The notes: generated by a model from the letters alone, not told the origin. Numbered from the stretch's first letter, positions 44,495 to 58,294 are shown. The stretch is DNA of 64,000 bases from Dehalococcoidia bacterium (GCA_009377745.1 WHTK01000011.1:18527-82526), one strand, 5' to 3'. Numbers and translations: made by a program.

Positions 44495-45139
44495 ATGCGA
44501 AGGAGCGTCTTATTCTCTCTGCTGATCATCGGCGCTGCGATCAGCGTTGTGGTCGGCGCCGGCACCTTCGGTGCGTTCTCTGACGAGGAGAACATCGACG
44601 GTACCGTCACCTCAGCCATCGTCGACTTCGAGCTCTCGGGCGATGGCGCCAGCACCGGGACCACGGAAAACCCAGTCGATGAGACTCTGGAGATCAGCTT
44701 TGATGCTCTGGGCGTCACGTGTGGCTTCGCGTTCTTCGCCCCCGGCAGCAGCTGCGAGCTGGAAATTGACCTAACACGGGCCAACATCCTTCAGCAACTC
44801 GCTGTTGACCTGAGCGTCACGGCCTTCACCGTTGAAGGCGTGGGCGACACCAACGCCGCCCCTGACCTCGACGTTGCAGCTCAATCCATCGGCATTGACT
44901 GCGATAGCGTGGCCGGGGCCGACTGGCACATCTCCTGGGACTGGTTCGACGACGGCGGTGATGACGACGAATTTATGCCGGCCGCAAACGACGACACCGG
45001 CCAGCGTATTGACGTGACTGTTTCTCTGGACGGCGACGCCCAGAACGGCTGCCAGAACAGCGAGATCGACCCGATCCTGATCACCATTCAGGCGTTGCAG
45101 GCCACGCCTGACCCGCACAAGGCCAACGACCTGCCTTAA
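44495..45139 (+). CDS. TasA/CalY-like protein with SipW-type signal peptide
   Basis: RBS AAGGAGG, GAGTFGAFSDEE cleavage motif, FAPG and AQNGCQN. Confidence 0.8.
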   Translation: MRRSVLFSLLIIGAAISVVVGAGTFGAFSDEENIDGTVTSAIVDFELSGDGASTGTTENPVDETLEISFDALGVTCGFAFFAPGSSCELEIDLTRANILQQLAVDLSVTAFTVEGVGDTNAAPDLDVAAQSIGIDCDSVAGADWHISWDWFDDGGDDDEFMPAANDDTGQRIDVTVSLDGDAQNGCQNSEIDPILITIQALQATPDPHKANDLP

Positions 45140-45194
45140 GGTCTCGGAACGGATTTAGCGGGTAATCAGGTAGTAGCTAAGGTACGGATAGCGG

Positions 45195-46022
45195 ATGAAG
45201 TCACTTTTTCGCCTCTCGTTCTTGCTTGCATCGCTGACTCTGGTGGGGTTCATGGGCCTTAATGGGGCCCTGGACCCCGCCGGGGTCGCCCGCGTGCAAG
45301 CGCACACCATCACCATCGAAGCGACGAGTGACGGGAACGATACCCTCACCTTCGGCATCACCGCTGCCTGCGATGCCCAGGCCCTGGCCCCCGGCGACCA
45401 GTGCGTGGCCACGGTCGCCGTCGAGAACACCGGCGCGGCCACGGTAGAAATCAGCGACCCCGCCCTCCAGACCAGCGGCACGCTCACCACCTGCGATGGC
45501 GGCGGCTGGCTCCAGGTCTCGCTAACGGACTACAACCCCAACACCAACACCCTCGATGTCGGCGACACGGTGGAGTTCGACGTACTGGTCGACTTCGGCG
45601 ACGCCGGCAACCCCTGTCAGGACCAGACCGCCCTGATCCAGATCACCATCGTGGCGGACTGCGTCTTCGCCGCCGATGACCCGGAGTGCGGCGGCGAGGA
45701 ACCCCCGGACGAGGATGAGCAACCGCCTGACGAGGATGAGGATGAAGACGAGGATGAGGACGAAAGTCCCACGGTCGTCGTTGTCCCACCCCCGGTAAGC
45801 GAGGTCGGCGGCGCCACCACGGCTCCGCCAGCCCAGCCCCAGACCACCTTCACGGCCGAGGTCCAGCCCTCCCGCTTCCCGACCACGGGCAGCGGCGGCT
45901 ACCTCAGCGATGACCTGCGCTCCGCCTCGCGCCTGGTCCTGATCGGCACCGGCAGCGTGGCTGCCACCCTCTTCGCCATCTCCCTCCTGATCTGGTTCAA
46001 CCGCAGAGAGGAAGAACGATGA
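45195..46022 (+). CDS. TasA-like domain protein with sortase sorting signal
   Basis: Signal peptide, LAPGDQC...VENTG, AGNPCQD, an acidic/Pro linker, then FPTTG + TM + RR. Confidence 0.8.
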   Translation: MKSLFRLSFLLASLTLVGFMGLNGALDPAGVARVQAHTITIEATSDGNDTLTFGITAACDAQALAPGDQCVATVAVENTGAATVEISDPALQTSGTLTTCDGGGWLQVSLTDYNPNTNTLDVGDTVEFDVLVDFGDAGNPCQDQTALIQITIVADCVFAADDPECGGEEPPDEDEQPPDEDEDEDEDEDESPTVVVVPPPVSEVGGATTAPPAQPQTTFTAEVQPSRFPTTGSGGYLSDDLRSASRLVLIGTGSVAATLFAISLLIWFNRREEER

Positions 46023-46645
46023 CGGCCCCCGAGTGGATCGAGGACGAAATGACGTCTCAAACGCAAGAGCAGCGCCCGGCGCGCCGGCCCCTGGCTCTCC
46101 GGCTGGGAAAGCTGCTGTTCAGCTTTACCGCCTGGACCGCCAGCATCGCCGCCGCCCTGATGCTGCTCACGATAATCATCTTTCTGGCCGCGCCCCGGGT
46201 CATGGGACTCGAAGGCCTGGTTGTCCTCACGGGCAGCATGGAGCCTGAGATCCCCGTCGGCGGCATGGTCTTCATCAAGGACGTCGATCCCAACTCGATC
46301 CACACCGGCGACGTCATCACCTACGGCGAAGCCAGCATCAGCACCACCCACCGCGTTGTGGAGGTAGTCAACGACCCGGTCGACGGCCTTCTCTTCCGCA
46401 CCAAGGGCGACAACAACGACGCGGTCGATACATTGCCCGTACTCGCCGCTTCGGTCCGCGGCAAGGCCAGCTTTACCCTGCCCCAGGTAGGCTACCTGGT
46501 CGATGCGCTCAAGGACCGCGGCAACTTCTATCTATTCATCGGCCTGCCGGCGGCGCTGCTCGTCCTGAACGAGCTGGTCAACATCGCTAGAGACATGCGC
46601 AACCCCGGCACAGCCCGCAGCACGCGCAAGGAGGCATCAGCGTGA
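46019..46645 (+). CDS. sipW: Signal peptidase I, SipW/ER-type
   Basis: VLTGSMEP (Ser), THRVV (His) and TKGDNN. Confidence 0.9.
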   Translation: MTAPEWIEDEMTSQTQEQRPARRPLALRLGKLLFSFTAWTASIAAALMLLTIIIFLAAPRVMGLEGLVVLTGSMEPEIPVGGMVFIKDVDPNSIHTGDVITYGEASISTTHRVVEVVNDPVDGLLFRTKGDNNDAVDTLPVLAASVRGKASFTLPQVGYLVDALKDRGNFYLFIGLPAALLVLNELVNIARDMRNPGTARSTRKEASA

Positions 46646-49185
46646 AGATGCGCTTTCCGCTCCTCGTACTCCTTCTAGTCGCCGGCTGCGTGCTTGTCAC
46701 GCCTGGCATGGCGCATTTCGGCGCCAGCTACACGGCATTTTCAGACACAGAAAATATCAGCGCCTCGGCCGAGTCTGGCGTCTGGCTTGGCACGATCAAG
46801 ATCATTAAGGTCGCCACGCCCTCAGATGGCACCGACTTTGCCTTCACGGGCGCCGGCGGCGACTTGCCGGCCAGCTTCACCCTGGACGACGATAACGATT
46901 CGAACGCCACCCACGACGATGAGGTGGAGTTCCTGCTCACCGCCGACGAGGGTCCCTTCACGATTAGTGAGGATGGGCCCCTGCCTGCCGGTTGGCAGCT
47001 CGCCGGCATCGATTGCGTAGTGGTGGGCACATCAACCTATTCCATCGACGGAAACGTCGACGATGGCGACTTTGACGCCGGGGATGACTCGGTCGAAATC
47101 GATCTCGTCGCGGGCGATACTGTCACCTGTACCTTTAACAATGTCAGGGACGGCTCGATCACCATCATCAAGGACGTCAACCCTGAGCCAGACACGACGG
47201 ACTTCTCCTTCACGGCCACCGGCGCCGGCATGACGCCGTCACCGTTCAGCCTGGATGACGACGCCGACCTGGGCCTCTCCAACACCCGCGTCTTCGCCGA
47301 CCTGGCCAACGGTGGCTCGCGCAGCGTCACAGAGGACACCGAGACCGGCTACACCGTCACGAACATCGTCTGCACCGGCGACACGGCCTCTACCGTGACG
47401 ATCGGCGCCGCCGGTGACTTCAATGACGGCGATACCGGTGTGACCATCGTCCTGGCGGATGGTGAGGACATTACCTGTACCTTCACCAACACGCTGGACA
47501 CCGGCACCATCCGCATCATCAAGGATGTGGCCGGCGGCACGGACCCGCAGGACTTCAGCTTCACGGACAACATCCCGGCGCCTTGCGTCATCGACGAAAT
47601 CGACGACGACGGCGTGGGCAACAACTATATCGAGTGCACGAGTGTCCCAACCTCGTCCTATACGGTTGCTGAGACGGGCGAGACAGGCTGGACATTTACG
47701 GGTCTAGCGTGTGTCGATAGCGTGACTGACAACAGCAGTGAAGCCGGCTCGACCGCGACCATCGTCCTGGACAAGGACGAGACGGTCACCTGTACCTTCA
47801 CCAACACGCGTGACACCGGCACCATCCGCATCATCAAGGACGTGGCCGGCGGCACCGACGCGCAGGACTTCAGCTTCACGGACAATATCCCGGCGCCCTG
47901 TGTCATCGACGAAATCGACGACGATGGCGTTGGCAACAACTACATCGAGTGCACCGGCGTCCCGACCGCCACCTACACGGTCACGGAGACGGGCGAGGAC
48001 GGCTGGTTGCTGACCAACCTCGACTGCGTCGATAGCGTGACGAGCAATAGCAGCGACACCGGATCGACAGCGACCATCGTCCTGGACAAGGACGAGACGG
48101 TGACCTGTACCTTCACCAACACCAAGCAGACCGGCACCGTGATCATCATCAAGGACGTCACCGGCTCGACGACGGAGCCGCAAGACTTTACGTTCACGGA
48201 AGCCATCCCGAACTGCACCATCCCAACCCTGGACGACGACACGGGCAGCAACCCCACGCCGCCGAACGGCGTCACCTGCACCGAGGTGCCTGTTGGCGGC
48301 CCCTACGCGGTAACTGAGGACGCCCTTGCAGGGTGGTCTGTAACGGTCAACTGCGTCGATACCGTGACGAACAACAGCACCGAGAACAACGCCACCCGCA
48401 CCGGCAGCATCAATCTGGAGTCCGGCGAGACGGTCACCTGTACCTTCACCAACACCAAGGTCGGCACGATCACGATTATCAAGGATGTGCGTGACTCAGA
48501 GGGTGATACGACCAGCTCGACGTCCTTCGCATTCACCAGCAACATCACCGGCACGTGTACGCCGGATACAACGCCCGCGGCCTTCTCCCTAGCCGATGGC
48601 GGCGCGGGCGGCGGCTCTGCCAGCGAAACCTGCAGCGTGGCACCCGGCACCTACACGGTTACCGAAACGCTGCCAACCGCCGGTTGGGGCTTCGTCCCCC
48701 AAAGCTGTGTTGACCTGACGAACAACAGCGCTATCACCCACACGACAGGTAGCGATACCGCGACAGCCACGATTGTCGTGAACGGCACGGAGAACATCAC
48801 CTGCACGTTCATCAACTTCATCATCCCGTCCGCCTGTCTGGCAGACGGCTTCGACAACGCCACCGTGGTAATCATGCCGCCAGACCTGCTCAACTACACG
48901 GGCGGGAACTTCCTGCAGATCATCGTTGGCAATGCCTTGAACAACACGATCACGGGTGACAATGCCAAGGATTGCATCCTCGGCGGTCCTGGCAATGACA
49001 CCCTCAATGGCGGCAACGGCAGTGACGTCCTCATCGGCGGCAGTGGCAACGACACCCTCAACGGTGGTAATAGCCCGGATAAGCTCTTTGGTGACGACGG
49101 TGACGACACTCTGGATGGCGGATCGAGCAATGATGTTATTTGTAACGGTGGTACTGGCACCAACACGCTTATCGATTGCCCCTAA
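46642..49185 (+). CDS. Large secreted adhesin-like protein: SipW-type signal, six prealbumin/CnaB-like repeats, RTX-like tail
   Basis: YTAFSDTE motif, six GTIxIIK...TCTFxN units, and GGxGND nonapeptides. Confidence 0.85.
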   Translation: MKMRFPLLVLLLVAGCVLVTPGMAHFGASYTAFSDTENISASAESGVWLGTIKIIKVATPSDGTDFAFTGAGGDLPASFTLDDDNDSNATHDDEVEFLLTADEGPFTISEDGPLPAGWQLAGIDCVVVGTSTYSIDGNVDDGDFDAGDDSVEIDLVAGDTVTCTFNNVRDGSITIIKDVNPEPDTTDFSFTATGAGMTPSPFSLDDDADLGLSNTRVFADLANGGSRSVTEDTETGYTVTNIVCTGDTASTVTIGAAGDFNDGDTGVTIVLADGEDITCTFTNTLDTGTIRIIKDVAGGTDPQDFSFTDNIPAPCVIDEIDDDGVGNNYIECTSVPTSSYTVAETGETGWTFTGLACVDSVTDNSSEAGSTATIVLDKDETVTCTFTNTRDTGTIRIIKDVAGGTDAQDFSFTDNIPAPCVIDEIDDDGVGNNYIECTGVPTATYTVTETGEDGWLLTNLDCVDSVTSNSSDTGSTATIVLDKDETVTCTFTNTKQTGTVIIIKDVTGSTTEPQDFTFTEAIPNCTIPTLDDDTGSNPTPPNGVTCTEVPVGGPYAVTEDALAGWSVTVNCVDTVTNNSTENNATRTGSINLESGETVTCTFTNTKVGTITIIKDVRDSEGDTTSSTSFAFTSNITGTCTPDTTPAAFSLADGGAGGGSASETCSVAPGTYTVTETLPTAGWGFVPQSCVDLTNNSAITHTTGSDTATATIVVNGTENITCTFINFIIPSACLADGFDNATVVIMPPDLLNYTGGNFLQIIVGNALNNTITGDNAKDCILGGPGNDTLNGGNGSDVLIGGSGNDTLNGGNSPDKLFGDDGDDTLDGGSSNDVICNGGTGTNTLIDCP
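47497..48126 (+). repeat. Intragenic tandem duplication, 2 x 315 bp
   Basis: Repeats 3 and 4 (47497-47811, 47812-48126) are near-identical. Confidence 0.9.
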
Positions 49186-49232
49186 GCCGGTTAATTCGGA
49201 CCAGCGTGCTTATTGACAGCGCGAGATAGGAC

Positions 49233-49262
49233 ATAGAGGGGCCTTTTCAAGGGCCCCTCTAT
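49233..49262. other. Hairpin between adhesin and sortase genes
   Basis: ATAGAGGGGCC-ttttcaag-GGCCCCTCTAT, with TTGACA at 49213. Confidence 0.55.
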
Positions 49263-49271
49263 GATTAAGGC

Positions 49272-49895
49272 ATGAATCGTAGACGCATCCTCCCCCTCGT
49301 CCTGGCCGTGATAGCCCTGGCTACGGTGCTGGGCATCGTGGCGGGCGGGTTGCTGCGGGATGGCGCCGCGCCGGGGCCGGTCGCGGTTGCGCCCACGGCT
49401 GTCGCGCCATCGCCAACAGCCACGCCCGCGCCGAGCAGCGCCGCCATCGTCCGGCTGCAGGTGCCGCGTATTGGCATCGACGCCGGCGTCGTCAGCCTGG
49501 GCGTCGACCCGGACGGGACCATGCAGTCGCCGGCGAAGCCGATGGACGTGGGCTGGTATCGCTTCGCGTCGCTGCCGGGGCACGGCGGCAACGTCGTCAT
49601 GTCGGGCCACGTCGACTACGTCAACTTCGGGGCGGCCGTCTTCTATCGGTTGAAGGAGCTGCAGCCGGGCGACCGGATCATCGTCGGCCTCGAAGATGGC
49701 CTCAGCTTCGCCTACGAGGTCGAGAGCCTGACCACCTACAACGCCAACGACCCGGTGCAGGAGGCCGTGGGGCCGACGGCGGCGGAGAGCGTCACCCTGA
49801 TCACCTGCACCGGCGCCTTCGACGCCGCCTCGCGGGAGTACGACAAGCGGCTCGTCGTGCGCGGCAGGCTGGTCGAGACGGCCAGCGCGCGCTGA
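49272..49895 (+). CDS. Class F sortase
   Basis: N-terminal TM, GWY...PG..GN...GHVDY, LITC and a downstream R. Confidence 0.92.
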   Translation: MNRRRILPLVLAVIALATVLGIVAGGLLRDGAAPGPVAVAPTAVAPSPTATPAPSSAAIVRLQVPRIGIDAGVVSLGVDPDGTMQSPAKPMDVGWYRFASLPGHGGNVVMSGHVDYVNFGAAVFYRLKELQPGDRIIVGLEDGLSFAYEVESLTTYNANDPVQEAVGPTAAESVTLITCTGAFDAASREYDKRLVVRGRLVETASAR

Positions 49896-50009: not shown

Positions 50010-51236
50010 ATGACGGCACCGAAGTACACCGAGCCGACCGGCGATCAGAAGGCAGGCTATCTGCATTATAAGCGCCCGGCTTCGCCCTGGGAGCTCTTCC
50101 AGAAGGAAGAAGGCATCCCGGTCTATCGAGGCATCGGCATGCGCGACTCGCGTGACCTGCCGCGCGAGCCCTGGGCGCGCCAGGGCGGCAAGGCGACCTA
50201 CATCCAGCTCATCGGCACCAACAATGCCACGGGTATGTACTGCTGGGAGCTGCCGGGCCGCGGCGCCTCCGAGCCGATCCATCACTTCTACGAAGAGCGA
50301 TTTATCGTGCTCAACGGACGCGGCTCCACCGAGGTCTGGAAAGACGGCTCCAGCGCCAAGAGCACGTTCGAGTGGCAGCCCTGGAGCGTCTTCTCGATCC
50401 CGCTCAACGCCCACTTCCGCGTCGTCAACGCGTCTTCGACGCCGGCCATCCTGCTGGGAGTGAACACGGCGCCGCGGATCATCAACATGTTCCAGAGCAA
50501 GTCCTTCACCTTCAACAATCCCTACAACTTCGAGGACCGCTTCGGCGGCAACCTGGAGGACTACTGGAAGCCGGCCGAAGACTACGAGGCGCACCCGGTC
50601 CAGGGCCGCGCCCAGCTGTCGACCAACCTGTTCCCGGACGCCCAGAGCTGCTACCTGCCGCTCGATAACAACCGGGCGCCGGGCTTTCGTTGGGTCTACC
50701 CGCAGATGGTCGGCAACACCGTCCTCGGCGGCTTCATCGCCGAGTATCCTCCAGGCCGCTACGCCAAGGCGCACCACCACGGCTCCGGCGCGGTGCTGGT
50801 CTGCATGCGCGGCAAGGGCTACAGCATCACCTGGCCGAGCAAGGAAGGCGGCCTGACGCCCTTCCAGGACGGCAAGGGCGACCTGGTGCTCTGGCAAGAG
50901 TACTGGGAAGGCGGCATGATCAGCGCCGCCCCGACCGGCAACCCGAACGAGACCTGGTTCCACCAGCACTTCGCAATCAGCGACGGCCCCTTCCGCGTCT
51001 TCAACTACACCGGCGGCAGCGCCTTCGGTACCGCTACCGGTGGCAGCGAGGGCGAAATGGTCGCCGGCGTCGGCGCCGAGATAACGGACGGCGGCCGGGC
51101 CATCCCCTACCACATGGAAGACCCGTTCCTGCGCAAGCACTTCACGGAGCGGCTCAAGGAAAACAACGCCCGCTTCGACATGCCGGAGGAGGTCTACACC
51201 GAGGCCGGCGCCAACATCAAGGTGATGTCAGACTAA
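50010..51236 (+). CDS. Bicupin protein paralogue A1 (408 aa)
   Basis: HHFYEE...FEWQ..S.FSIP and YAKAHHHGSGA...WFHQHF. Confidence 0.9.
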   Translation: MTAPKYTEPTGDQKAGYLHYKRPASPWELFQKEEGIPVYRGIGMRDSRDLPREPWARQGGKATYIQLIGTNNATGMYCWELPGRGASEPIHHFYEERFIVLNGRGSTEVWKDGSSAKSTFEWQPWSVFSIPLNAHFRVVNASSTPAILLGVNTAPRIINMFQSKSFTFNNPYNFEDRFGGNLEDYWKPAEDYEAHPVQGRAQLSTNLFPDAQSCYLPLDNNRAPGFRWVYPQMVGNTVLGGFIAEYPPGRYAKAHHHGSGAVLVCMRGKGYSITWPSKEGGLTPFQDGKGDLVLWQEYWEGGMISAAPTGNPNETWFHQHFAISDGPFRVFNYTGGSAFGTATGGSEGEMVAGVGAEITDGGRAIPYHMEDPFLRKHFTERLKENNARFDMPEEVYTEAGANIKVMSD

Positions 51237-51248
51237 GAACCTCAGTCA

Positions 51249-51285
51249 GACAACGAAGGGGGCCCGCCGGCCCCTTTCGTTTGTC
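51249..51285 (+). terminator. Intrinsic terminator
   Basis: ACGAAGGGGGCC-cgcc-GGCCCCTTTCGTTT. Confidence 0.75.
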
Positions 51286-51364
51286 CGGAAACCGCGCTCC
51301 GCTGAGACCAAAATGCAGTAAAATCTGCCAGACATCGTTCAAGATTCACGCTAAGGAGACGTCG

Positions 51365-52591
51365 ATGACCGCACCGAAATATGTAGAACCATCAGGCGAT
51401 CAAAAGGCAGGCTACCTGCACTACAAGCGCCCTGCTTCCCCGTGGGAGATCTTCCTCAAGGAAGAGGGCATTCCGGTTTATCATGGCATCGGCATGCGCG
51501 ACTCGCGTGACCTGCCGCGCGCGCCCTGGGCGCGTCAGGGCGGCAAAGCTACCTACATCCAGCTCATCGGCACCAACAACGACACCGGCATGTACTGCTG
51601 GGAGCTCCCCGGCCGCGGCTCATCCGAGGTCATCCACCACTTCTACGAGGAGCGCTTCATCGTCCTCAACGGCCGCGGCTCCACCGAGGTCTGGAAGGAA
51701 GGCAGCAGCGCCAAGACGACCTTCGAGTGGCAGCCCTGGAGCGTATTCTCGATCCCGCTCAACGCCTACTTCCGCGTCGTCAACGCCTCCTCCGGCCCCG
51801 CGATCATCCTCGCCGTGAACACGGCGCCGCGGATCGTCAACATGTTCCAGAGCAAGTCGTTCACCTTCAACAACCCCTACAACTTCGAAGATCGCTTCGG
51901 CGGCAACCTGGAGGACTACTGGAAGCCGGCCGAGGATTACGAAGCGCACCCCGTCCAGGGCCGCGCCCAACTGACGACCAACCTCTTCCCGGACGCGCAG
52001 AACTGCTACCTGCCGCTCGACAACAACCGGGCGCCCGGCTTCCGCTGGGTCTACCCGCAGATGGTCGGCAACACGGTGCTGGGCGGCTTCATCGCCGAGT
52101 ACCCGCCCGGCCGCTACGCCAAGGCGCATCACCACGGCTCCGGCGCCGTCCTGGTCTGCATGCGCGGCAAGGGCTATAGCATCACCTGGCCCAGCAAGGA
52201 AGGCGGCCTGACGCCCTTCCAGGACGGCAAGGGCGACCTCGTCCTCTGGCAGGAGTACTGGGAGGGCGGTATGATCAGCGCCGCCCCCACCGGCAACCCG
52301 AACGAGACCTGGTTCCACCAGCACTTCGCGATCAGCAGCGGCCCCTTCCGCGTCTTCAACTACACCGGTGGCAGCGCCTTCGGGGTGGCGGGGCCCGGCC
52401 AGGAAGGCGACATGGTCGCCGGCATCGGCGCTGAGATCACGGACGGCGGCCGGGCCATCCCCTACCACATGGAAGACCCGTTCCTGCGCAAGCACTTTGA
52501 GGAGCGCCTCAAGGAGAACAGCGGCAGCTTCGACATGCCGGAAGAGGTTTACACCGAAGCCGGCGCCAGCATCAGGGTGATGTCTGACTAG
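51365..52591 (+). CDS. Bicupin protein paralogue A2 (408 aa)
   Basis: RBS AAGGAG. Nearly identical to A1. Confidence 0.9.
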   Translation: MTAPKYVEPSGDQKAGYLHYKRPASPWEIFLKEEGIPVYHGIGMRDSRDLPRAPWARQGGKATYIQLIGTNNDTGMYCWELPGRGSSEVIHHFYEERFIVLNGRGSTEVWKEGSSAKTTFEWQPWSVFSIPLNAYFRVVNASSGPAIILAVNTAPRIVNMFQSKSFTFNNPYNFEDRFGGNLEDYWKPAEDYEAHPVQGRAQLTTNLFPDAQNCYLPLDNNRAPGFRWVYPQMVGNTVLGGFIAEYPPGRYAKAHHHGSGAVLVCMRGKGYSITWPSKEGGLTPFQDGKGDLVLWQEYWEGGMISAAPTGNPNETWFHQHFAISSGPFRVFNYTGGSAFGVAGPGQEGDMVAGIGAEITDGGRAIPYHMEDPFLRKHFEERLKENSGSFDMPEEVYTEAGASIRVMSD

Positions 52592-52610
52592 CAACGTCAA
52601 AGGAACTACA

Positions 52611-52642
52611 GAAAGGGGGCCGTTACCGGCCCCCTTTTCTTG
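52611..52642 (+). terminator. Intrinsic terminator
   Basis: GAAAGGGGGCCG-ttac-CGGCCCCCTTTTCTT. Confidence 0.8.
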
Positions 52643-52735
52643 CCTTGCCAGCCTGTCGCTGTAAGCCGTACGGCTGGCGCTCCCAATCTAATCAGCCGGT
52701 TTCATAACGCCGGCCGGGGCAGGTGATATCTTGCT

Positions 52736-52752
52736 TCGATAGGAGTAGAATC
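52736..52752 (+). promoter_or_regulatory. Conserved promoter motif upstream of cupin 3
   Basis: Identical to 49948-49964. Confidence 0.65.
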
Positions 52753-52798
52753 GCGCCAGACCCCGCATCGCGCATCCCCTTTCGAAGGAGTTACCGAC

Positions 52799-54025
52799 GT
52801 GACGGCAAAGTACGTAGAACCTTCCGGCGATCAAAAGGCTGGCTACCTGCATTACCGGCGTCCCGCATCGCCCTGGGAGCTCTTCCAGAAGGAGGAGGGT
52901 CTCCCGGTCTTCAAAGGCATCGGCATGAAGAACTCCCGCGACCTGCCGCGCCAGCCCTACGAGCGCATCGGCGGTCTCGGCACTTACATCCAGCTCTACG
53001 GCACCAACAATTCCACCGGCATGTTCCTCTGGGAGCTTCCCGGCCGCTCCGCCTCTAAGGACATCAAGCACTTCTGGGAGGAGCGCTACATAGTCATCGA
53101 AGGGCGTGGCTCTACCGAGGTCTGGAAAGAAGGCAGCAGCGCCAGGACCTCCTTCGAATGGCAGCCCTGGAGCGTTTTCTCCATCCCGATGAACGCCTCG
53201 TTCAAGGTCGTCAACGCCAGCTCCAGCCCGGCGATCCTGCTGGCCGTCAACACGGCGCCGCAGATGATCAACATGTTCCAGAGCAAGTCCTTCATCTTCA
53301 GCAACCCCTACAACTTCGAAGACCGCTTCGGCGGCAACCTGGAGGACTACTGGAAGCCGGCCGAGGACCTGGAATCCCACCCGACTCAGGGTCGCGCCAT
53401 GCTGCGCACCAACCTGTTCCCGGACGCCCAGAGCTGCTATCTGCCGCTCGATAACAATCGCGGGCCCGGCTACCGCTGGATATCGCCCAACATGGTCGGC
53501 AACACCAACCTCTCCGGCTTCATCGCCGAGTACCCCAGCGGCCGCTATGCCAAGGCGCACCACCACGGCTCTGGCGCCGTCCTGGTCTGCATGCGCGGCT
53601 TCGGATACAGCTACACCTGGCCCTCCAAGGAGGGCGGCCTCACACCCTGGAAGGACGGCAAGGGCGACCTCGTGATGCAGCAGGACTATGAGGAAGGCGG
53701 CATGATCAGCGCCGCTCCCACCCCTGTCGCCGGCGAGACCTGGTTCCACGAGCACTTCGCCGTTAGCAAGTCGCCGTTCCGTATCTTCAACTACACGGGC
53801 AACGGCGGCTTCGTTGGCGGCGGCGCCGGCACCAGCGAAGGGGAGATGGTCGCAGGCGTCGGCGCTGAGATCGGCGATGGCGGTATCGCCATCCCCTACC
53901 ACATGGAAGACCCGTACGTGCGCAAGTACTTCGAGTCCCGCCTCAAGGAGTCCGGCGCCACGTTCACGATGCCGGAGGAGGTCTACACCCCCGGCGGCAT
54001 CACCATCAACATCAACTACGCCTGA
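52799..54025 (+). CDS. Bicupin protein paralogue A3 (408 aa)
   Basis: RBS AAGGAG, GTG start, KHFWEE and AKAHHHG...WFHEHF. Confidence 0.9.
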   Translation: MTAKYVEPSGDQKAGYLHYRRPASPWELFQKEEGLPVFKGIGMKNSRDLPRQPYERIGGLGTYIQLYGTNNSTGMFLWELPGRSASKDIKHFWEERYIVIEGRGSTEVWKEGSSARTSFEWQPWSVFSIPMNASFKVVNASSSPAILLAVNTAPQMINMFQSKSFIFSNPYNFEDRFGGNLEDYWKPAEDLESHPTQGRAMLRTNLFPDAQSCYLPLDNNRGPGYRWISPNMVGNTNLSGFIAEYPSGRYAKAHHHGSGAVLVCMRGFGYSYTWPSKEGGLTPWKDGKGDLVMQQDYEEGGMISAAPTPVAGETWFHEHFAVSKSPFRIFNYTGNGGFVGGGAGTSEGEMVAGVGAEIGDGGIAIPYHMEDPYVRKYFESRLKESGATFTMPEEVYTPGGITININYA

Positions 54026-54050
54026 ACCCCAATCAGAGAGGATCACCCTA

Positions 54051-55157
54051 TTGGAAACTACCGAGAAATTGGCGCAAGACCCATTCCAGGCCTACATGGA
54101 GAGCACCGGCCTGCCGATCTATCGCGGCCACCACGTTGCCGACCTGCGCACCGTAGAGCTGGCCTGGTGGCCGGAGCGCGAATGCAACGCCGCCTTCACG
54201 GAACTGGCCGGCCAGGAGGGCATCACCGAGGGCCGTATCACCGAGATACCGGCCGGCAAGTCGCTGCCGCCTTTCCGCTCCGCCGTCGACGAACTGGTCT
54301 ACGTGGTCAGCGGCCAGGGTATCGCCACGGTGGCTACGGATGGCCGGCCCAAGAAGACGTTCGAGTGGCAGAAGTTCAGCCTCTTCCTGCTGCCCGGCGG
54401 CGTCACCTACCAGCTCGCCAACATGCAGGGCGATCAACCGGCCCGGCTCCTCCACTACAGCTACATGCCGCTGGCGATGAGCCTGGTGATGGACCACGAG
54501 CTGCTCTTCAACCCGCCGCACGAGACGCCCGACCGCATCTACAACGAGGACAACCCCTACGCCGAAGCCCAGCTCAAGCTCGGCCGCGGCTGGGGCTCCC
54601 GTAACATGCGCCAGGTCTGGACCGGTAACTTCTTCCCGGACATGCGCGGCTGGGACAAGCTAAACAACCTCTCCGGCCGCGGCGCCGGTGGCGCGTCCGT
54701 GATGATGCGCTACCCTGGCTCCGAGGTTAGCTCCCACATGTCCGTCTTCCCGCCCGGCACCTACAAGAAGGGCCACCGCCACGGACCCGGACGCATCATC
54801 GTCATCCCCGGCGGCGAAGGCTTCTCGATCATGTGGGAAGAGGGCCACGAGAAGGTCATTGTCCCCTGGCAGGAAGCCAGCATGTTCGTGCCGCCGGACC
54901 GGTGGTTCCACCAGCACTTCAACCTCGGCGGCACCCAGGCACGCTACCTGGCGCTGCACCCGCCGCCGCAGTTCTACGGCCGCAGCGAGCAGGTCGAGGA
55001 CCGCGAACGCGACCAGATCGAGTACCCGGATGAGGACCCATTCGTCCGCAACTACTTCGAGGAAGAGCTGGCGAAGCGCGGACTCAAGACCCTCATGCCA
55101 GAGGAGTGCTACAAGGACTACAACTATACCTTCGCCGCCGCCATTGCCGGCGACTAG
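54051..55157 (+). CDS. Divergent bicupin protein (type B)
   Basis: TTG start after GAGAGGA, FEWQKFSLF and YKKGHRHGPG...WFHQHFN. Confidence 0.88.
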   Translation: METTEKLAQDPFQAYMESTGLPIYRGHHVADLRTVELAWWPERECNAAFTELAGQEGITEGRITEIPAGKSLPPFRSAVDELVYVVSGQGIATVATDGRPKKTFEWQKFSLFLLPGGVTYQLANMQGDQPARLLHYSYMPLAMSLVMDHELLFNPPHETPDRIYNEDNPYAEAQLKLGRGWGSRNMRQVWTGNFFPDMRGWDKLNNLSGRGAGGASVMMRYPGSEVSSHMSVFPPGTYKKGHRHGPGRIIVIPGGEGFSIMWEEGHEKVIVPWQEASMFVPPDRWFHQHFNLGGTQARYLALHPPPQFYGRSEQVEDRERDQIEYPDEDPFVRNYFEEELAKRGLKTLMPEECYKDYNYTFAAAIAGD

Positions 55158-55190
55158 GTTGAGCCCCTCCTACGCTACGTCCGTCTTAGC

Positions 55191-55234
55191 TCCCCCTCTC
55201 CGTCCACGGAGAGGGGGACTGAGGGGGGAGAGGT
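55191..55234. repeat. CCCCTCTCC..GGAGAGGGG palindromic REP-like element
   Basis: Second copy at 56855-56904. Confidence 0.7.
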
Positions 55235-55242
55235 CGTAGCTC

Positions 55243-56700
55243 ATGGCTTTTAGCGACGAGCTGGAAGGCCTGGAGAGGATCACCCTCACCAGCGTCGGCA
55301 TCGACATCGGCTCCTCCACGTCGCATATCATCTTCTCCCGCCTCACCCTGCGCCGCGAGGGCGGCCTTTCGGGCCGCTTCCGGGTCGCCGAGCGGCGCGT
55401 CCTCTACGAGTCGCCGATCATGCTCACGCCCTACGTCTCGCAGTTCCAGCTCGACGCGGCCAAGCTTCAGGAGTTCATCACCCGCTGCTACGCTGACGCC
55501 AAGATCGACGCCTCTAAGGTCGATACCGGCGCGGTCATCCTGACGGGTGAGGCGCTCAAGAAGGAGAACGCCCAGCCGATCTCCGAGTTCTTTGCCGCCC
55601 AGTCCGGTAAGTTCATCTGCGCCTCGGCCGGCCCCAACCACGAATGCGTCCTCGCCGCCCACGGCTCCGGCGCCTTCCAGGCCTCGGCGGCGGAAGGCAC
55701 GACGGTGCTCAACGTCGATATGGGCGGCGGCACAACCAAGTTCACCGTGATCCGCGACGGCGTCATCACGGAGCTCGCCTCGGTCAACATCGGCGCCCGC
55801 CTGATCGCCATCGATGAGGAGGGCGTCATCCAGCGCCTCGAAGACGCCGGCCGCATCGTCGCAGCCGACATCGGCCGCGATGTCGATCTGGGTACGCACC
55901 TCGATCACCCTGCCCTCGAAGCGCTGGCCGCCCGCATGGCCGAGGTCCTCTTCGACGTGATGCAGCAGGGATCGGACTTGAGTGGCCTGGCGTCTGAGCT
56001 GATGATCACGCCGCCGCTGCAGACCCGTCTTGAAGCCATCGACAGCATCTTCTTCTCCGGCGGCGTCTCCGAGTATGTCTACGACCGCGAAGCCACCAAC
56101 TACGGCGACCTCGGCCGGCTGCTGGGAGTGGGCGTCCGCGCCAAGCTCGCCAGCCTCGGCATCGAGGACCGCGTGCGCACGCCGATCGCCGGCATCCGTG
56201 CGACCGTCATCGGCGCCGGCGAGTACACGGTGCAGGCCAGCGGCACGACCTGCTACTTTTCCAACACCGATGCCCTGCCCGTCATGGGACTCAAGGTCTT
56301 GCGCGCCCTCGATTCAGCCAACCTCGTGAGCGAGATCCGGCGCCAGTTCCTCAAATTCGATATCGAGCGCTATGGCCCTGGCCTGGCGCTGTCCGTGCAG
56401 TTGCCCGAGGTCCTCAACTACCCCGTCCTGCGCGACGTCGCGGAGCAGATCACGGAGATCGTCTCCGAAGACAGCGATCTCTCGCCCGTTTATCTGATGC
56501 TGGACGCCGATGTCGCCAAGAGCCTCGGCCGCATCCTGAAGGAAGAGCTGGCACTGCCACAGGAGGTCATCGTCATCGACGGCATCGAAGTCGAGGGTGA
56601 CCTCGACTACGTCGACATCGGCAAACCGCTGGGCATCACCGAGGTCGTCCCAGTCACCGTCAAGAGCCTCGTGTTCCCGACGGCCGCGCCCGCCGACTGA
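55243..56700 (+). CDS. eutA: EutA-like reactivating factor (ASKHA ATPase)
   Basis: SVGIDIGSSTS, GAVILTGE, SAGP..E..LAAHGSGA, NVDMGGGTT, IRATVIGA, DYVDIG and VPVTVKSLVF. Confidence 0.88.
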   Translation: MAFSDELEGLERITLTSVGIDIGSSTSHIIFSRLTLRREGGLSGRFRVAERRVLYESPIMLTPYVSQFQLDAAKLQEFITRCYADAKIDASKVDTGAVILTGEALKKENAQPISEFFAAQSGKFICASAGPNHECVLAAHGSGAFQASAAEGTTVLNVDMGGGTTKFTVIRDGVITELASVNIGARLIAIDEEGVIQRLEDAGRIVAADIGRDVDLGTHLDHPALEALAARMAEVLFDVMQQGSDLSGLASELMITPPLQTRLEAIDSIFFSGGVSEYVYDREATNYGDLGRLLGVGVRAKLASLGIEDRVRTPIAGIRATVIGAGEYTVQASGTTCYFSNTDALPVMGLKVLRALDSANLVSEIRRQFLKFDIERYGPGLALSVQLPEVLNYPVLRDVAEQITEIVSEDSDLSPVYLMLDADVAKSLGRILKEELALPQEVIVIDGIEVEGDLDYVDIGKPLGITEVVPVTVKSLVFPTAAPAD

Positions 56701-56854
56701 TCGGCTGGGACCGCTCTTAAATTCGCCGCGTTTGCGTCCTTTGACAGACTCAGGATGCCTCTAGTGGCATCTTCTCTCGGAGATAGTGCTGCTCGAAGCT
56801 CGGTTGCGTAGACCTCTCCCAGATTGTCCTGTCTCGTAGCGCTATCGAACCTTC

Positions 56855-56904
56855 GCCCCTCTCCGTCGACGGAGAGGGGCTGCCGACAGGCAGGGGGAGA
56901 GGCC
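56855..56904. repeat. CCCCTCTCC..GGAGAGGGG palindromic REP-like element
   Basis: Matches 55191-55234. Confidence 0.7.
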
Positions 56905-56920
56905 TCCACGCCTACTCAAG

Positions 56921-56954
56921 AAAGGGGGCCGGTCGATGAGACCGGCCCCCCTTT
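56921..56954. terminator. Bidirectional intrinsic terminator
   Basis: AAAGGGGGCCGGTC-gatga-GACCGGCCCCCCTTT between convergent genes. Confidence 0.75.
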
Positions 56955-56980
56955 AACGTTTAGCTATTTCGCAAACAGCG

Positions 56981-58294
56981 CTAGTCCATACCTCCGCCGC
57001 CACGGCGTCCCACCGCCATGCGCGTCTCCAGCATCGTTAGGCCGAACAAGCCGTCCTTCATCGCCTCGAACCACTGCGTGCCCTTTGGGAGCACCGTCTC
57101 CAGCGAGCGCAGCTTGTAGTACGTCGGCGCAACGCCGGGCGGGTGGCCACCATCTTCGACACTCTTGATCGCCTTGAGCAGGGTGCGGCGAGCGTTGATG
57201 ATCGCCCGGTCCGTCGTGCCCAGGCGCTCCAGCGTGCGGTCGGCGATGGCGCCCATGCTTTCCTGGATCGCCCGGTCCTGAGTGTTGGTCCCCAGAATGC
57301 CGGTGTAAGTCTCGTTCTTCTGCAGCTCCCGGTCGATCTCGTACCTATTGTCCATGTTGCGCACGGACCGGAAGTTGTTCTCCACGTTGATGTCGACATA
57401 AAGCTCGTTGCCGGAGCCCGTCAGCTTCTTCTGGCGCTCGGACAGCGGCTCCTTGCCCCAGTCCCAGTGCAGGTTGAAGACCATCGTGTTCTCGTCGTCC
57501 ATCGGCACCCAGATGTGGCCGTTGCTGCCGGATGTGCCGCCGGGCCGGATCTGGTACCACGGCATGATCCAGTGATAAGCGCGGACGTAGTCGCCCTCGT
57601 CGCCCATCGTGCGGATGCCGGCATAGCTATAGCCGTAGTCGGTCGGGACAACCTCGATGACCGGCGCCAGCGACAGGTTGCGCGCGCGCCCGCCGACCGT
57701 GTTGTCATCGAACGTCTGGCCCGGAGGCTTGCCGCCGTGGAGGAAGTTGGTGTGAGAGCTGTCGATGCCGCCCTCGAGGGCCTGCAGCCAGTTGCTCTGC
57801 TGCCAGATCTTCGAGATACCCAGGTTAGCGTCCGGCAGCTGCGTCCACTCGAAGTGCGGCGGCGCCGGCTTCTTCTCCGGCGGGCCCATGTAGGCCCAGA
57901 CGACGCTGCCGGCCTCGACGGTTGGGTAGGCCGGGATGCGGACTTTGTCCTTGAAGTTGGACTCCTCCGGCTCCGAGGGCATGTCTACACAGTGGCCTTC
58001 ACAGTCGAACTTCCAGCCGTGGTATACGCAGCGCAGGCCGTTCTCCTCATTGCGGCCCCAGAAGAGGTGGGCGCGGCGATGAGCGCAGCGGGCGCCGACA
58101 ATGCCAACGCGGCCGTCGGTCTGGCGGAAGGCGACCAGCTCTTCGCTGAGCAGCTTGATCGTGATCGGTGGGCTGTCGGGCTCCGGCACCTCCCACGAAA
58201 GTGCCGCCGGTACCCAGTAGCGGCGCATGAGCTCGCCCATGGGCGTGCCCGGCCCGACCCTGCACAGAGTCTCGTTTTGCTCTTGTGTTAGCAT
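56981..58294 (-). CDS. Rieske oxygenase alpha subunit (phthalate 4,5-dioxygenase/LigXa-like)
   Basis: RBS AAGGAGG, CAHRRAH...CVYHGW and EGGIDSSHTNFLH. Confidence 0.93.
   Translation of the reverse strand: MLTQEQNETLCRVGPGTPMGELMRRYWVPAALSWEVPEPDSPPITIKLLSEELVAFRQTDGRVGIVGARCAHRRAHLFWGRNEENGLRCVYHGWKFDCEGHCVDMPSEPEESNFKDKVRIPAYPTVEAGSVVWAYMGPPEKKPAPPHFEWTQLPDANLGISKIWQQSNWLQALEGGIDSSHTNFLHGGKPPGQTFDDNTVGGRARNLSLAPVIEVVPTDYGYSYAGIRTMGDEGDYVRAYHWIMPWYQIRPGGTSGSNGHIWVPMDDENTMVFNLHWDWGKEPLSERQKKLTGSGNELYVDINVENNFRSVRNMDNRYEIDRELQKNETYTGILGTNTQDRAIQESMGAIADRTLERLGTTDRAIINARRTLLKAIKSVEDGGHPPGVAPTYYKLRSLETVLPKGTQWFEAMKDGLFGLTMLETRMAVGRRGGGGMD

What the first reader, a model, noticed from the sequence alone, without database searches (positions are those of the whole stretch)
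50010..56700. Four tandem bicupins plus an orphan EutA-like ATPase: uncharacterised enzyme system
Seen: three exactly 408-aa paralogues (A1 and A2 nearly identical, A3 more distant), a divergent fourth bicupin, then an EutA homologue with both ASKHA phosphate motifs. There is no eutB/eutC or B12 gene in the window. A-types keep an H-F-Y/W-EE motif in cupin 1 and HHH...H in cupin 2, while the B-type has lost the N-terminal His (RSAVDE). Known: EutA reactivates AdoCbl ethanolamine ammonia-lyase using ATP, and His-rich bicupins include gentisate-type dioxygenases. Inference: an A/B heteromeric metalloenzyme with an ATP-dependent activase or reactivase repurposed for a non-EutBC client, using interchangeable A subunits. 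It may act downstream of the convergent Rieske oxygenase.
Basis: partly seen in the sequence, partly recalled or inferred. Interest (0 to 1): 0.78.

Follow-up and report, generated by a model that had tools for sequence, protein, structure and literature searches.

The report
Cupin enzymes with a borrowed EutA ATPase
A gene cluster in a Chloroflexota genome pairs a metal-binding "double cupin" enzyme with a relative of the ATPase that normally repairs a vitamin-B12 enzyme, although that B12 enzyme is absent, and the same pair recurs in many other bacteria, so the ATPase probably services a new kind of client.

Summary
Three 408-aa bicupins (A1, A2, A3), a divergent bicupin (B, 368 aa) and a 485-aa EutA-family ATPase lie in tandem, convergent with a LigXa-type Rieske oxygenase.

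No eutB or eutC was found in this genome (93.6% complete). None was found in 17 related genomes or 5 genomes of other phyla that carry such an EutA.

The conserved unit is B plus EutA-like, not A plus B.
- A bicupin lies next to the EutA-like gene on the same strand in 16 of 24 cases in related genomes, and directly upstream in 27 of 56 metagenome loci.
- B-like bicupins and EutA co-occur: 16 genomes have both, 2 only EutA, 1 only B-like, 182 neither.
- EutA subclades track bicupin subclades.
- A complex model scores 0.77 against 0.00 for controls. It docks the EutA C-terminal domain on B's metal-less N-terminal cupin.

B's closest solved fold is gentisate or salicylate 1,2-dioxygenase, but its three-histidine site sits in the C-terminal cupin.

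My best reading is an ATP-driven activase or repair chaperone for a cupin metalloenzyme. That mechanism is inferred, not shown. The A-types belong to a 22-copy expansion that is often linked to Rieske genes. An A/B heteromer is not supported.

The parts
50010..51236 (+). A1, an A-type bicupin of 408 aa
   Evidence: ORF and translation. Weak Cupin_2 match. It is one of about 22 paralogues in the genome. In the family alignment H255, H318, H320 and E96 are invariant, and H257 and H92 are nearly so.
51365..52591 (+). A2, an A-type bicupin of 408 aa, 92% identical to A1
52799..54025 (+). A3, an A-type bicupin of 408 aa with a GTG start, 75-77% identical to A1 and A2. It ends 25 nt before B.
54051..55157 (+). 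B-type bicupin of 368 aa. Its N-terminal cupin has no His ligands. Its C-terminal cupin carries HxH...HQH.
   Evidence: TTG start with a GAGAGGA ribosome-binding site. Cupin_2 at 30.6 bits. Invariant H229, H242, H244, H287, Q288 and H289. AlphaFold2 model with pLDDT 89.4. Best solved folds are gentisate 1,2-dioxygenase 3bu7 (Z 21.6) and salicylate 1,2-dioxygenase 2phd (Z 20.9). It is the only B-type gene in the genome.
55193..55216 (.). 24-nt GC-rich palindrome between B and the EutA-like gene
   Evidence: There are 11 copies (up to 3 mismatches) in the genome. No T-run follows it, so the terminator scan did not call it.
55243..56700 (+). EutA-family ASKHA ATPase of 485 aa, the predicted partner of B
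   Evidence: PF06277 at 374.6 bits. It scores below all four NCBIfam EutA equivalog cut-offs, for example 311.9 against 598. It is 35% identical to E. coli EutA over the full length. ATP-binding motifs are invariant. AlphaFold2 model with pLDDT 89.6; the ASKHA core spans 13-331 and a C-terminal domain spans about 335-480. Complex model with B: 0.77 against 0.00 for the best control.
56856..56879 (.). Second copy of the same palindrome, between the EutA-like stop and the Rieske stop
56981..58294 (-). Convergent Rieske non-heme iron oxygenase of the LigXa (O-demethylase-like) type, 437 aa
   Evidence: Rieske at 64.6 bits and LigXa_C at 163.6 bits. It is one of 25 paralogous loci in the genome.

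Best explanation
The cluster joins two things.

(1) A1, A2 and A3 are three tandem copies of a lineage-specific expansion of bicupins that resemble gentisate dioxygenase. They probably act on aromatic compounds after LigXa-type Rieske oxygenases.

(2) The core is a conserved two-gene module: a B-type bicupin and a dedicated EutA-family ATPase. The ATPase does not serve ethanolamine ammonia-lyase. It docks through its C-terminal domain onto the degenerate, metal-less N-terminal cupin of B. It then uses ATP binding and hydrolysis to activate or repair the three-histidine metal centre in B's C-terminal cupin. It would do this by opening the enzyme so that an oxidised or wrong metal, or a tightly bound dead-end ligand, can be exchanged. 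This is the cupin counterpart of EutA's ATP-driven exchange of damaged cobalamin.

Shown here: the gene content, the absence of EutBC, conserved linkage, co-occurrence, co-diversification, intact ATPase motifs and a metal motif in the C-terminal cupin.
Predicted: the complex and its interface.
Inferred: ATP-driven reactivation, the identity of the metal, and oxygenase chemistry.
For: No EutBC:
- EutB and EutC give 0 matches in the own genome.
- EutB is found in 0 of 17 EutA-bearing genomes of the class.
- In the whole class sample EutB is in 1 of 201 genomes, and that genome has no full-length EutA.
- EutB is found in 0 of 5 genomes of other phyla, among them the isolate Pseudonocardia alaniniphila.

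Linkage:
- A bicupin lies within 600 nt on the same strand for 16 of 24 EutA-like genes in 20 loci from related genomes.
- In 80 metagenome loci, 56 have enough upstream DNA. Of these, 27 have a bicupin directly upstream (17 B-like, 10 A-like) and 33 have a bicupin somewhere in the locus.
- Of the 20 closest orthologues, 16 have a flanking bicupin.

Co-occurrence in 201 genomes: 16 have both, 2 only EutA, 1 only B-like, 182 neither.

Co-diversification:
- The identity matrices of 21 EutA/bicupin pairs correlate (r = 0.78). None of 5000 permutations reaches this value.
- EutA subclades match partner type. The window's clade has aLRT 97, and 5 of its 7 rows have a B-type neighbour. A separate clade with support 100 has A-type neighbours.

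Binding model: ipSAE 0.77, best of 3 controls 0.00. That mark was reached by 116 of 157 solved complexes and 2 of 215 mismatched pairs. The runs share at least 93% of contacts, and the partner's pLDDT is at least 82. The interface joins EutA 335-336, 389-397 and 422-435 to B 68-71, 89-93, 100-107 and 123-128. No EutA structure was found in the PDB by sequence, so the pass is unlikely to come from memory.

Intact ATPase: D21, G23, S24, D159, G161-G163, T164, G273 and G274 are invariant in 52 sequences. Interface residue Y393 is nearly invariant.

Metal site: H242, H244, H287 and H289 are invariant in B's C-terminal cupin, and there is no conserved His in the N-terminal cupin.

Other EutA subclades also sit beside metal-related genes. 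A metallo-beta-lactamase-fold gene lies directly downstream in 4 loci, and a NicO nickel/cobalt transporter upstream in 3, among the 22 cupin-less loci I selected for annotation (gene calls, Pfam).
Against: - No biochemical datum exists for any member, and no RNA data could be found.
- The ASKHA core resembles Ppx/GppA phosphatases (Z 16.7) more than the diol-dehydratase reactivase DdrA (Z 11.1). A catalytic rather than chaperone role for the ATPase is therefore open.
- Many bicupins have no EutA next to them. That holds for about 20 of 22 A-types here, and for 9 or more B-likes against 2 EutA genes in G063. The ATPase is therefore either shared among paralogues or not generally needed.
- 23 of 56 metagenome loci show no bicupin.
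- One locus (L032) sets the pair between a glycyl-radical enzyme and a radical-SAM protein. That argues against O2-dependent chemistry in at least some members.
- One locus (L019) has a corrinoid protein and a URO-D-type methyltransferase directly downstream of the EutA-like gene. A corrinoid link is therefore not excluded everywhere.
- The co-occurrence and Mantel figures come from related genomes, which are not independent.
- The complex score is the model's own confidence, obtained with my own alignments.
Confidence: 0.48

Rival explanations
1. Two-component ATP-dependent enzyme. The EutA-like protein is a catalytic subunit: an ASKHA kinase, phosphatase or ATP-dependent substrate activator. 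It forms a complex with the bicupin, which does the second chemical step (isomerase, lyase, decarboxylase or oxygenase) on a transported small molecule.
For: The ASKHA core is closest in fold to Ppx/GppA phosphohydrolases, and sugar and pantothenate kinases also appear in the list. The pair is often embedded in ABC, MFS or TRAP transporter operons, as catabolic enzymes are. B's second cupin gives weak hits to cupin-type phosphoglucose isomerases (E 0.22). The predicted complex fits a holoenzyme as well as it fits a chaperone.
Against: The protein is 35% identical over its whole length, C-terminal domain included, to E. coli EutA, which the E. coli record annotates as the lyase's reactivase. 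From recall, it acts on a protein client rather than a small molecule. The interface lies on the C-terminal domain, far from the nucleotide motifs, and on the metal-less cupin. Partner types vary (bicupin, monocupins, metallo-beta-lactamase fold), which suits a client-adapting chaperone better than a single reaction.
Confidence: 0.22
2. A-type and B-type bicupins form a heteromeric metalloenzyme with interchangeable A subunits, serviced by the EutA-like activase.
For: A3 ends only 25 nt before B. Two different bicupin genes beside one EutA-like gene recur: B-EutA-B' in 6 metagenome loci and in L011, and two bicupins upstream in L018 and L030. The up and down copies form separate sister groups.
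Against: In those triads both bicupins are B-like, not A-like. Of the five B-partnered loci in the window's EutA clade, four have no A-type gene. A-types have an EutA subclade of their own. There are 22 A-types to one B in this genome. The model places EutA, not a second bicupin, on B's N-terminal cupin. A+B binding was not tested.
Confidence: 0.1
3. Placeholder model, by analogy with DdrA/DdrB. B is a non-catalytic mimic of the clients that occupies the ATPase until ATP releases it. The ATPase then binds and repairs the many A-type enzymes by subunit swapping.
For: This genome has a single B next to the ATPase and 22 A-types. A-types keep several B interface positions: R89-G90, T103-F104-E105 and N124.
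Against: B keeps every putative metal ligand as an invariant residue. B-likes are themselves multi-copy in other genomes. A-types lack G127 and H229 and have their own EutA subclade.
Confidence: 0.07
4. An ordinary EutA that reactivates an ethanolamine ammonia-lyase encoded elsewhere or on an unassembled part of the genome. On this reading the cupin adjacency is chance.
For: The Pfam family match is strong. Public annotation names the homologues EutA. The genome is 93.6% complete, not closed.
Against: EutB and EutC were not found here. EutB was found in 0 of 17 and 0 of 5 other carriers, some of them single-contig genomes. The scores are far below the EutA equivalog cut-offs. E. coli EutA is a long outgroup branch to all 32 cupin-context sequences. 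The linkage statistics also argue against chance.
Confidence: 0.02

Closest known systems
EutA, the ethanolamine ammonia-lyase reactivase (E. coli b2451; Pfam PF06277)
   Same: Same Pfam family over the full length (374.6 bits). 35% identity over 476 aligned residues, including the C-terminal domain and the Y393, D423 and G429 positions that form the predicted interface. Same ASKHA ATP-binding motifs.
   Different: No EutB or EutC in the genome. Below all four NCBIfam EutA equivalog cut-offs. The neighbour and predicted partner is a bicupin, not a B12 enzyme. It is phylogenetically separate from E. coli EutA (quick tree with a single canonical sequence).
Gentisate 1,2-dioxygenase and salicylate 1,2-dioxygenase (PDB 3bu7, 2phd, 2d40): 3-His Fe(II) bicupin ring-cleaving dioxygenases
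   Same: These are the best structural matches of the B model: Z 21.6, 20.9 and 19.1, with 252-267 aligned residues. 3bu7 is also the best PDB sequence hit for B and one of only two weak hits for A1 (E 0.0056 and 0.27). B has an HxH...H motif without the Glu ligand.
   Different: Only 14-19% identity. Seed-storage bicupins score nearly as high (Z 18.9). The His motif is in the C-terminal cupin, whereas, from recall, the salicylate and gentisate enzymes use the N-terminal cupin. There is a conserved extra C-terminal helical tail (IEYPDEDP...). No ATPase partner is known to me for this family (recall).
Diol/glycerol dehydratase reactivases DdrAB and GdrAB
   Same: The ASKHA-fold large subunit resembles the model (2d0o, Z 11.1). 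From recall, they release a damaged cofactor from a client enzyme using ATP.
   Different: A different Pfam family, a much weaker fold match than Ppx/GppA, and a B12 client. Here no small subunit is present, unless B plays that part (the placeholder rival).
Dedicated repair factors of ring-cleaving dioxygenases (XylT-type ferredoxins) and ASKHA reductive activators of corrinoid proteins (RACo, RamA). All recalled, none tested.
   Same: The idea of a dedicated accessory protein that restores an inactivated metal or cofactor centre. RACo-type activators also have an ASKHA fold.
   Different: XylT is a small [2Fe-2S] ferredoxin and uses no ATP. The EutA-like protein has no conserved Cys pair for a cluster; only C126 is nearly invariant.
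LigXa-type Rieske O-demethylase oxygenases
   Same: The convergent gene has Rieske and LigXa_C domains.
   Different: It is one of 25 paralogous loci. Its substrate is unknown, and it scores below every NCBIfam equivalog cut-off.

Membership tests
EutA (ethanolamine ammonia-lyase reactivating factor) | Full-length match to Pfam PF06277 | tested here: met
   374.6 bits, profile positions 2-474 of 475.
EutA (ethanolamine ammonia-lyase reactivating factor) | Score above an NCBIfam EutA equivalog cut-off (NF007991-NF007994) | tested here: not met
   311.9 against 598; 271.3 against 769; 227 against 799; 216.3 against 952.
EutA (ethanolamine ammonia-lyase reactivating factor) | The client EutB/EutC is encoded in the genome or neighbourhood | tested here: not met
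   PF06751 and PF05985 give 0 matches in the own genome, which is 93.6% complete. EutB was found in 0 of 17 and 0 of 5 other carriers.
EutA (ethanolamine ammonia-lyase reactivating factor) | ASKHA nucleotide-binding motifs intact | tested here: met
   Invariant D21, G23, S24, D159, G161-G163, T164, G273 and G274. ASKHA fold over residues 13-331.
EutA (ethanolamine ammonia-lyase reactivating factor) | ATP-dependent exchange of damaged cobalamin in the lyase | not testable with these tools
   Needs biochemistry.
Gentisate/salicylate 1,2-dioxygenase family (3-His bicupin ring-cleaving dioxygenases) | Bicupin fold closest to family members | tested here: met
   3bu7 Z 21.6, 2phd Z 20.9, 2d40 Z 19.1. 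The next unrelated bicupins reach Z 18.9, so the margin is small.
Gentisate/salicylate 1,2-dioxygenase family (3-His bicupin ring-cleaving dioxygenases) | Significant sequence similarity | tested here: inconclusive
   phmmer against the PDB: E 0.0056 for B and 0.27 for A1, covering only part of the C-terminal cupin.
Gentisate/salicylate 1,2-dioxygenase family (3-His bicupin ring-cleaving dioxygenases) | Catalytic 3-His site in the N-terminal cupin (position recalled from the salicylate and gentisate enzymes) | tested here: not met
   B has no conserved His in the N-terminal cupin. The A family has only H92 plus E96 there. The HxH...H(Q)H motif is in the C-terminal cupin of both families.
Gentisate/salicylate 1,2-dioxygenase family (3-His bicupin ring-cleaving dioxygenases) | Fe(II)- and O2-dependent ring cleavage | not testable with these tools
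   Needs an assay. One related locus lies among anaerobic radical enzymes.
DdrAB/GdrAB-type reactivase | Fold of the large subunit, plus a small subunit that mimics a client subunit | tested here: inconclusive
   2d0o Z 11.1, ranked 37th. No small-subunit gene was seen. B as a mimic is speculation.
LigXa-type Rieske oxygenase (the convergent gene) | Rieske [2Fe-2S] domain plus LigXa_C catalytic domain | tested here: met
   64.6 and 163.6 bits.

The most novel reading that the evidence does not exclude
The EutA family is not a B12-specific reactivase family. It is a general class of ATP-driven repair or loading chaperones for protein-bound metal centres. Its bicupin-linked clades are found here in members of four phyla, and the homologue lists name further candidate phyla among thousands of environmental sequences. 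They would be the first dedicated ATP-dependent reactivases of mononuclear non-heme (3-His cupin) enzymes. Each uses the enzyme's own degenerate second cupin as its docking handle.
Probability: 0.35. Interest if true: 0.85.

Novelty: new variant of a known kind. Interest (0 to 1): 0.7.

Why it matters
Public databases name thousands of environmental proteins "ethanolamine ammonia-lyase reactivating factor EutA" (names). They do so in genomes where no ethanolamine ammonia-lyase was found. The annotation is therefore probably over-propagated.

If the ATPase really services cupin metalloenzymes, it would open a new chapter for reactivases, which so far are known for B12 and a few other cofactors. 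It would also suggest why a conserved, metal-less second cupin is retained, namely as a docking site.

It would also bear on how Chloroflexota and other soil and ocean bacteria keep large batteries of oxidation-prone enzymes working while they degrade refractory aromatic matter. This genome alone has about 22 bicupins and 25 Rieske oxygenase loci.

The pair occurs in a cultured actinomycete (Pseudonocardia alaniniphila), so the question is directly testable.

Tried and rejected
- PDB by sequence: no hit for the EutA-like protein at E up to 1. Only marginal hits for the bicupins.
- Foldseek on the B model gave only generic bicupin matches (MncA, oxalate decarboxylase, vicilins; TM about 0.45-0.5). 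The VIA-align wide search was more informative.
- NCBIfam gave no family for any of the four bicupins.
- ESM Atlas returned only unnamed or generic cupin clusters for B.
- Literature: five searches found no description of a cupin-EutA pair in the held library. The term sets were EutA/cupin/Rieske; EutA/reactivase/homolog/cupin; EutA-like and variants; COG4819/PF06277/IPR009377; and bicupin/ATPase/reactivation/dioxygenase. The "EutA" of ectoine papers appears to be an unrelated protein (judged from the search listings and my recall). One SAR202 paper (PMC6123686, passages read) reports many ring-cleaving dioxygenases and demethylating monooxygenases in Arctic Chloroflexi genomes but says nothing about EutA. 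Subscription journals and supplements were not searched.
- Sequencing runs: none was listed for window 52700-57000, so read laying was not used and I have no expression data.
- The search for related loci with the single protein in genome contigs gave only 5 loci. I used whole-genome searches and a metagenome scan instead.
- I tested whether EutA-adjacent and non-adjacent B-like paralogues differ at the predicted interface. They do not, in the 12 usable rows of 15. Three rows were dropped because my script picked an ORF on the wrong strand. This neither supports nor refutes a shared ATPase.
- The careful tree search did not finish in time. The quick IQ-TREE tree with SH-aLRT supports is what I cite.
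- My gene calls in the fetched loci come from a crude GC3-based script. Some genes were missed or mis-started (for example the second EutA of L023).
- The promoter and terminator scan gave nothing above shuffles for terminators (6 found, 5.1 expected). It gave three weak promoter-like sites, which I do not rely on.

Full report
**What is there**

The window is part of contig C25 of a 3.53-Mb genome in 73 contigs, 93.6% complete. Homologue names place it among Chloroflexota, probably Dehalococcoidia-like.

Five genes lie head to tail on the + strand:
- A1 at 50010-51236, A2 at 51365-52591 and A3 at 52799-54025, each 408 aa.
- B, whose best start is TTG 54051, 8 nt after GAGAGGA, giving 368 aa to 55157.
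- An EutA-family gene at 55243-56700 (485 aa).

A1 and A2 are 92% identical. A3 is 75-77% identical to them, and B is 25-28% identical to the A-types. A Rieske/LigXa_C oxygenase gene is convergent at 56981-58294.

Upstream lies an unrelated surface-protein cluster: a SipW-type signal peptidase, a SpaA-like repeat protein with RTX repeats, and a class F sortase. Downstream are bactofilin, a phosphatase and DUF4012. The catabolic unit is therefore A1 to EutA plus the Rieske gene.

**The EutA homologue is not an ethanolamine-lyase factor**

It matches Pfam EutA over its whole length (374.6 bits) and is 35% identical to E. coli EutA. However, it scores about half the cut-off of each of NCBI's four EutA equivalog models.

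EutB and EutC are not found in the genome, yet the genome has four full-length EutA paralogues.

In a sample of 201 genomes of the same class:
- 18 have a full-length EutA.
- Only one has EutB, and it is not one of the 18.
- A direct search of the 17 other carriers found EutB in none.

Five carriers from other phyla also lack EutB. They are a Deltaproteobacteria MAG, Pseudonocardia alaniniphila, Inquilinus, Xanthobacteraceae and an alphaproteobacterial MAG.

**What it is linked to**

In the own genome three of the four EutA paralogues lie near a bicupin:
- in the window, next to B;
- on contig C2, directly after an A-type;
- on contig C72, 2.6 kb from a bicupin and a Rieske gene.
The fourth, on contig C67, lies next to a methyltransferase and an unknown protein.

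In 20 loci fetched from the related carriers, 16 of 24 EutA-like genes have a bicupin within 600 nt on the same strand. These neighbours mostly score better with B than with A1. All five loci from other phyla have a B-like bicupin within 3.5 kb.

In 80 metagenome loci found with an EutA-like profile:
- 56 have at least 1300 nt upstream.
- 27 of those have a bicupin directly upstream (17 B-like, 10 A-like).
- 33 have a bicupin somewhere in the locus.
- Among the 20 closest orthologues (at least 50% identity), 16 have a flanking bicupin.
- 6 have one on both sides.

Across the 201-genome sample, B-like bicupins (E up to 1e-35) occur in 17 genomes, 16 of which are EutA carriers. The table is 16 both, 2 EutA only, 1 B-like only and 182 neither. 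These genomes are related, so the figures overstate independence.

The lists of close homologues of B and of the EutA-like protein name the same taxa (Deltaproteobacteria, Binatia, Acidoferrales, Chloroflexota).

**Co-diversification**

For 21 EutA/bicupin neighbour pairs the two identity matrices correlate (Pearson 0.78). None of 5000 permutations reaches this value.

A quick maximum-likelihood tree of 32 EutA-likes plus E. coli EutA shows:
- E. coli on a long outgroup branch.
- The window's protein in a 7-member clade (SH-aLRT 97), in which 5 members have a B-type neighbour.
- A-type neighbours going with a different clade (support 100) that includes the own C2 and C72 paralogues.
- The C67 paralogue grouping with another cupin-less, methyltransferase-linked sequence.

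Paralogous pairs inside one genome thus diverge in parallel, which species phylogeny alone would not produce.

**Predicted binding**

A complex model of the EutA-like protein with B scored 0.77, against 0.00 for the best of three controls.
- That mark was reached by 116 of 157 solved complexes and 2 of 215 mismatched pairs.
- The runs agree in at least 93% of contacts, and the partner's pLDDT is at least 82.
- The counts hold only roughly, because my own alignments were used.

The interface joins the C-terminal domain of the ATPase (335-336, 389-397, 422-435) to the N-terminal cupin of B (68-71, 89-93, 100-107, 123-128). Several interface residues are conserved: Y393, D421, D423 and G429 in the ATPase, and G69, R89, G90, F104, E105, N124 and G127 in B. 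Y393, D423 and G429 are also present in E. coli EutA, so this may be the family's general client surface.

The model supports binding but does not show it.

**What the bicupins are**

The A and B families are homologous along their whole length (hhalign probability 100%, 28% identity). They share a conserved C-terminal tail.

In both families the C-terminal cupin carries HxH...HQH without the usual Glu. In B, H242, H244, H287 and H289 are invariant. In A, H255, H318 and H320 are invariant and H257 nearly so.

The N-terminal cupin is degenerate. B has no conserved His there, and A has only H92 and E96.

The AlphaFold2 model of B (pLDDT 89.4) is closest to gentisate 1,2-dioxygenase (3bu7, Z 21.6, rmsd 4.5, 267 aligned), salicylate 1,2-dioxygenase (2phd, Z 20.9) and E. 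coli Z3393 (2d40, Z 19.1). Seed-storage bicupins follow at Z 18.9. Sequence similarity to 3bu7 is marginal.

I therefore call them gentisate-dioxygenase-like 3-His bicupins with the site moved to the C-terminal barrel, not members of that family.

Neighbouring genes in related loci include:
- LigXa-type Rieske oxygenases
- Amidohydro_2 and UbiD decarboxylase families
- dienelactone hydrolase
- glyoxalase-fold proteins
- molybdenum hydroxylases
- TPP enzymes
- many transporters
This fits the catabolism of aromatic or other small organic compounds. One locus (L032) puts the pair among a glycyl-radical enzyme and a radical-SAM protein, so oxygen-dependent chemistry is not certain for all members.

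**The A-type expansion**

The genome has about 22 A-type genes. Several on contigs C38 and C17 are split between frames. It also has 25 LigXa-type Rieske loci.

Only 2 of 20 relatives have any A-like match, and only one of them (G204) has EutA-likes, again next to a bicupin.

Six of 21 bicupin loci lie within 3 kb of a Rieske paralogue, three of them adjacent on the same strand. Only 37 of 10000 random placements reach six.

**The ATPase and the likely mechanism**

The AlphaFold2 model (pLDDT 89.6) has an ASKHA core at 13-331. Its best matches are Ppx/GppA-type proteins (Z 16.7). The diol dehydratase reactivase DdrA reaches Z 11.1. A C-terminal domain carries the predicted interface. All nucleotide-binding motifs are invariant. 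No conserved Cys pair for an iron-sulfur cluster is present.

EutA-like subclades without bicupins also sit next to metal-related genes:
- a metallo-beta-lactamase-fold gene directly downstream in 4 loci
- a NicO nickel/cobalt transporter plus IclR upstream in 3 loci
- a pair of monocupins in 1 locus
Several bicupin pairs lie inside iron(III)-type ABC transporter operons.

Taken together, I think the most likely mechanism is an ATP-driven activase or repair chaperone. It grips the dead N-terminal cupin and opens the enzyme, so that the metal or a blocking ligand in the C-terminal site can be exchanged. I put this at roughly even odds.

The main rival is a true two-component ATP-dependent enzyme.

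**Novelty**

I found no description of this pair in five literature searches of the held library, nor in Pfam, NCBIfam or the PDB. Subscription papers and supplements were not searched.

I file it as a new variant of a known kind: an EutA-family reactivase-like ATPase with a non-B12, cupin client. The function remains inferred.

Noticed in passing
window 55193-55216 and 56856-56879: The same 24-nt GC-rich palindrome flanks the EutA-like gene on both sides. With up to 3 mismatches it occurs 11 times in the genome, so it looks like a low-copy REP-like element. Its role (mRNA stability, attenuation or mobility) is unknown.
   Followed up: partly
window about 1-32000 against 32000-64000: Base composition changes near 32 kb. 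GC rises from about 0.59-0.61 to 0.63-0.68, and third-codon-position GC from about 0.70 to 0.85. The genome average is 0.638, so the first half of the window is the atypical part. It could be an island or an assembly join.
   Followed up: partly
window 44495-49895: A Gram-positive-style surface cluster: a protein with a SipW-dependent signal peptide, a SipW-type signal peptidase, an 847-aa protein with six SpaA-like prealbumin-fold repeats and C-terminal RTX calcium-binding repeats, and a class F sortase. It is unrelated to the finding.
   Followed up: no
window about 5470-6680 (-), 18160-19440 (+), 28860-30140 (-): Three more LigXa-type Rieske paralogues lie in the same window, at 63%, 50% and 43% identity to the one at 56981-58294. 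The positions are converted from contig coordinates.
   Followed up: no
own genome contigs C38 (123814-126463, 175218-176478) and C17 (95535-97002; Rieske 94170-95508): Several A-type bicupin copies and one Rieske copy match in two or three pieces in different frames, or with a stop. They are either decaying paralogues or assembly errors.
   Followed up: no
L070, L072, L080, L083; L096, L112, L127; L008 and L035: Other EutA-like subclades have other recurrent neighbours. A 200-aa metallo-beta-lactamase-fold protein (Lactamase_B_5) lies directly downstream in 4 loci. A NicO nickel/cobalt transporter plus an IclR regulator lies upstream in 3. A class I methyltransferase lies upstream in the own C67 paralogue and in L035.
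   Followed up: partly
L019 (716-4793) and L032 (3051-14657): In L019 the bicupin/EutA-like pair is followed by a corrinoid-binding protein and a URO-D-type methyltransferase. In L032 it lies between a glycyl-radical enzyme and a radical-SAM protein. Both hint at anaerobic contexts, and possibly corrinoid-linked ones, for some members.
   Followed up: no
L053, L054, L056, L059, L061, L062 and L011: In the closest orthologous loci the EutA-like gene is sandwiched between two B-like bicupin genes. The upstream and downstream copies form separate sister groups, so a two-bicupin system is conserved in that lineage.
   Followed up: partly
L015 8001-10786: In one alphaproteobacterial MAG both the EutA-like gene and the bicupin after it match only in several short pieces. 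The pair is either broken there or the assembly is poor.
   Followed up: no
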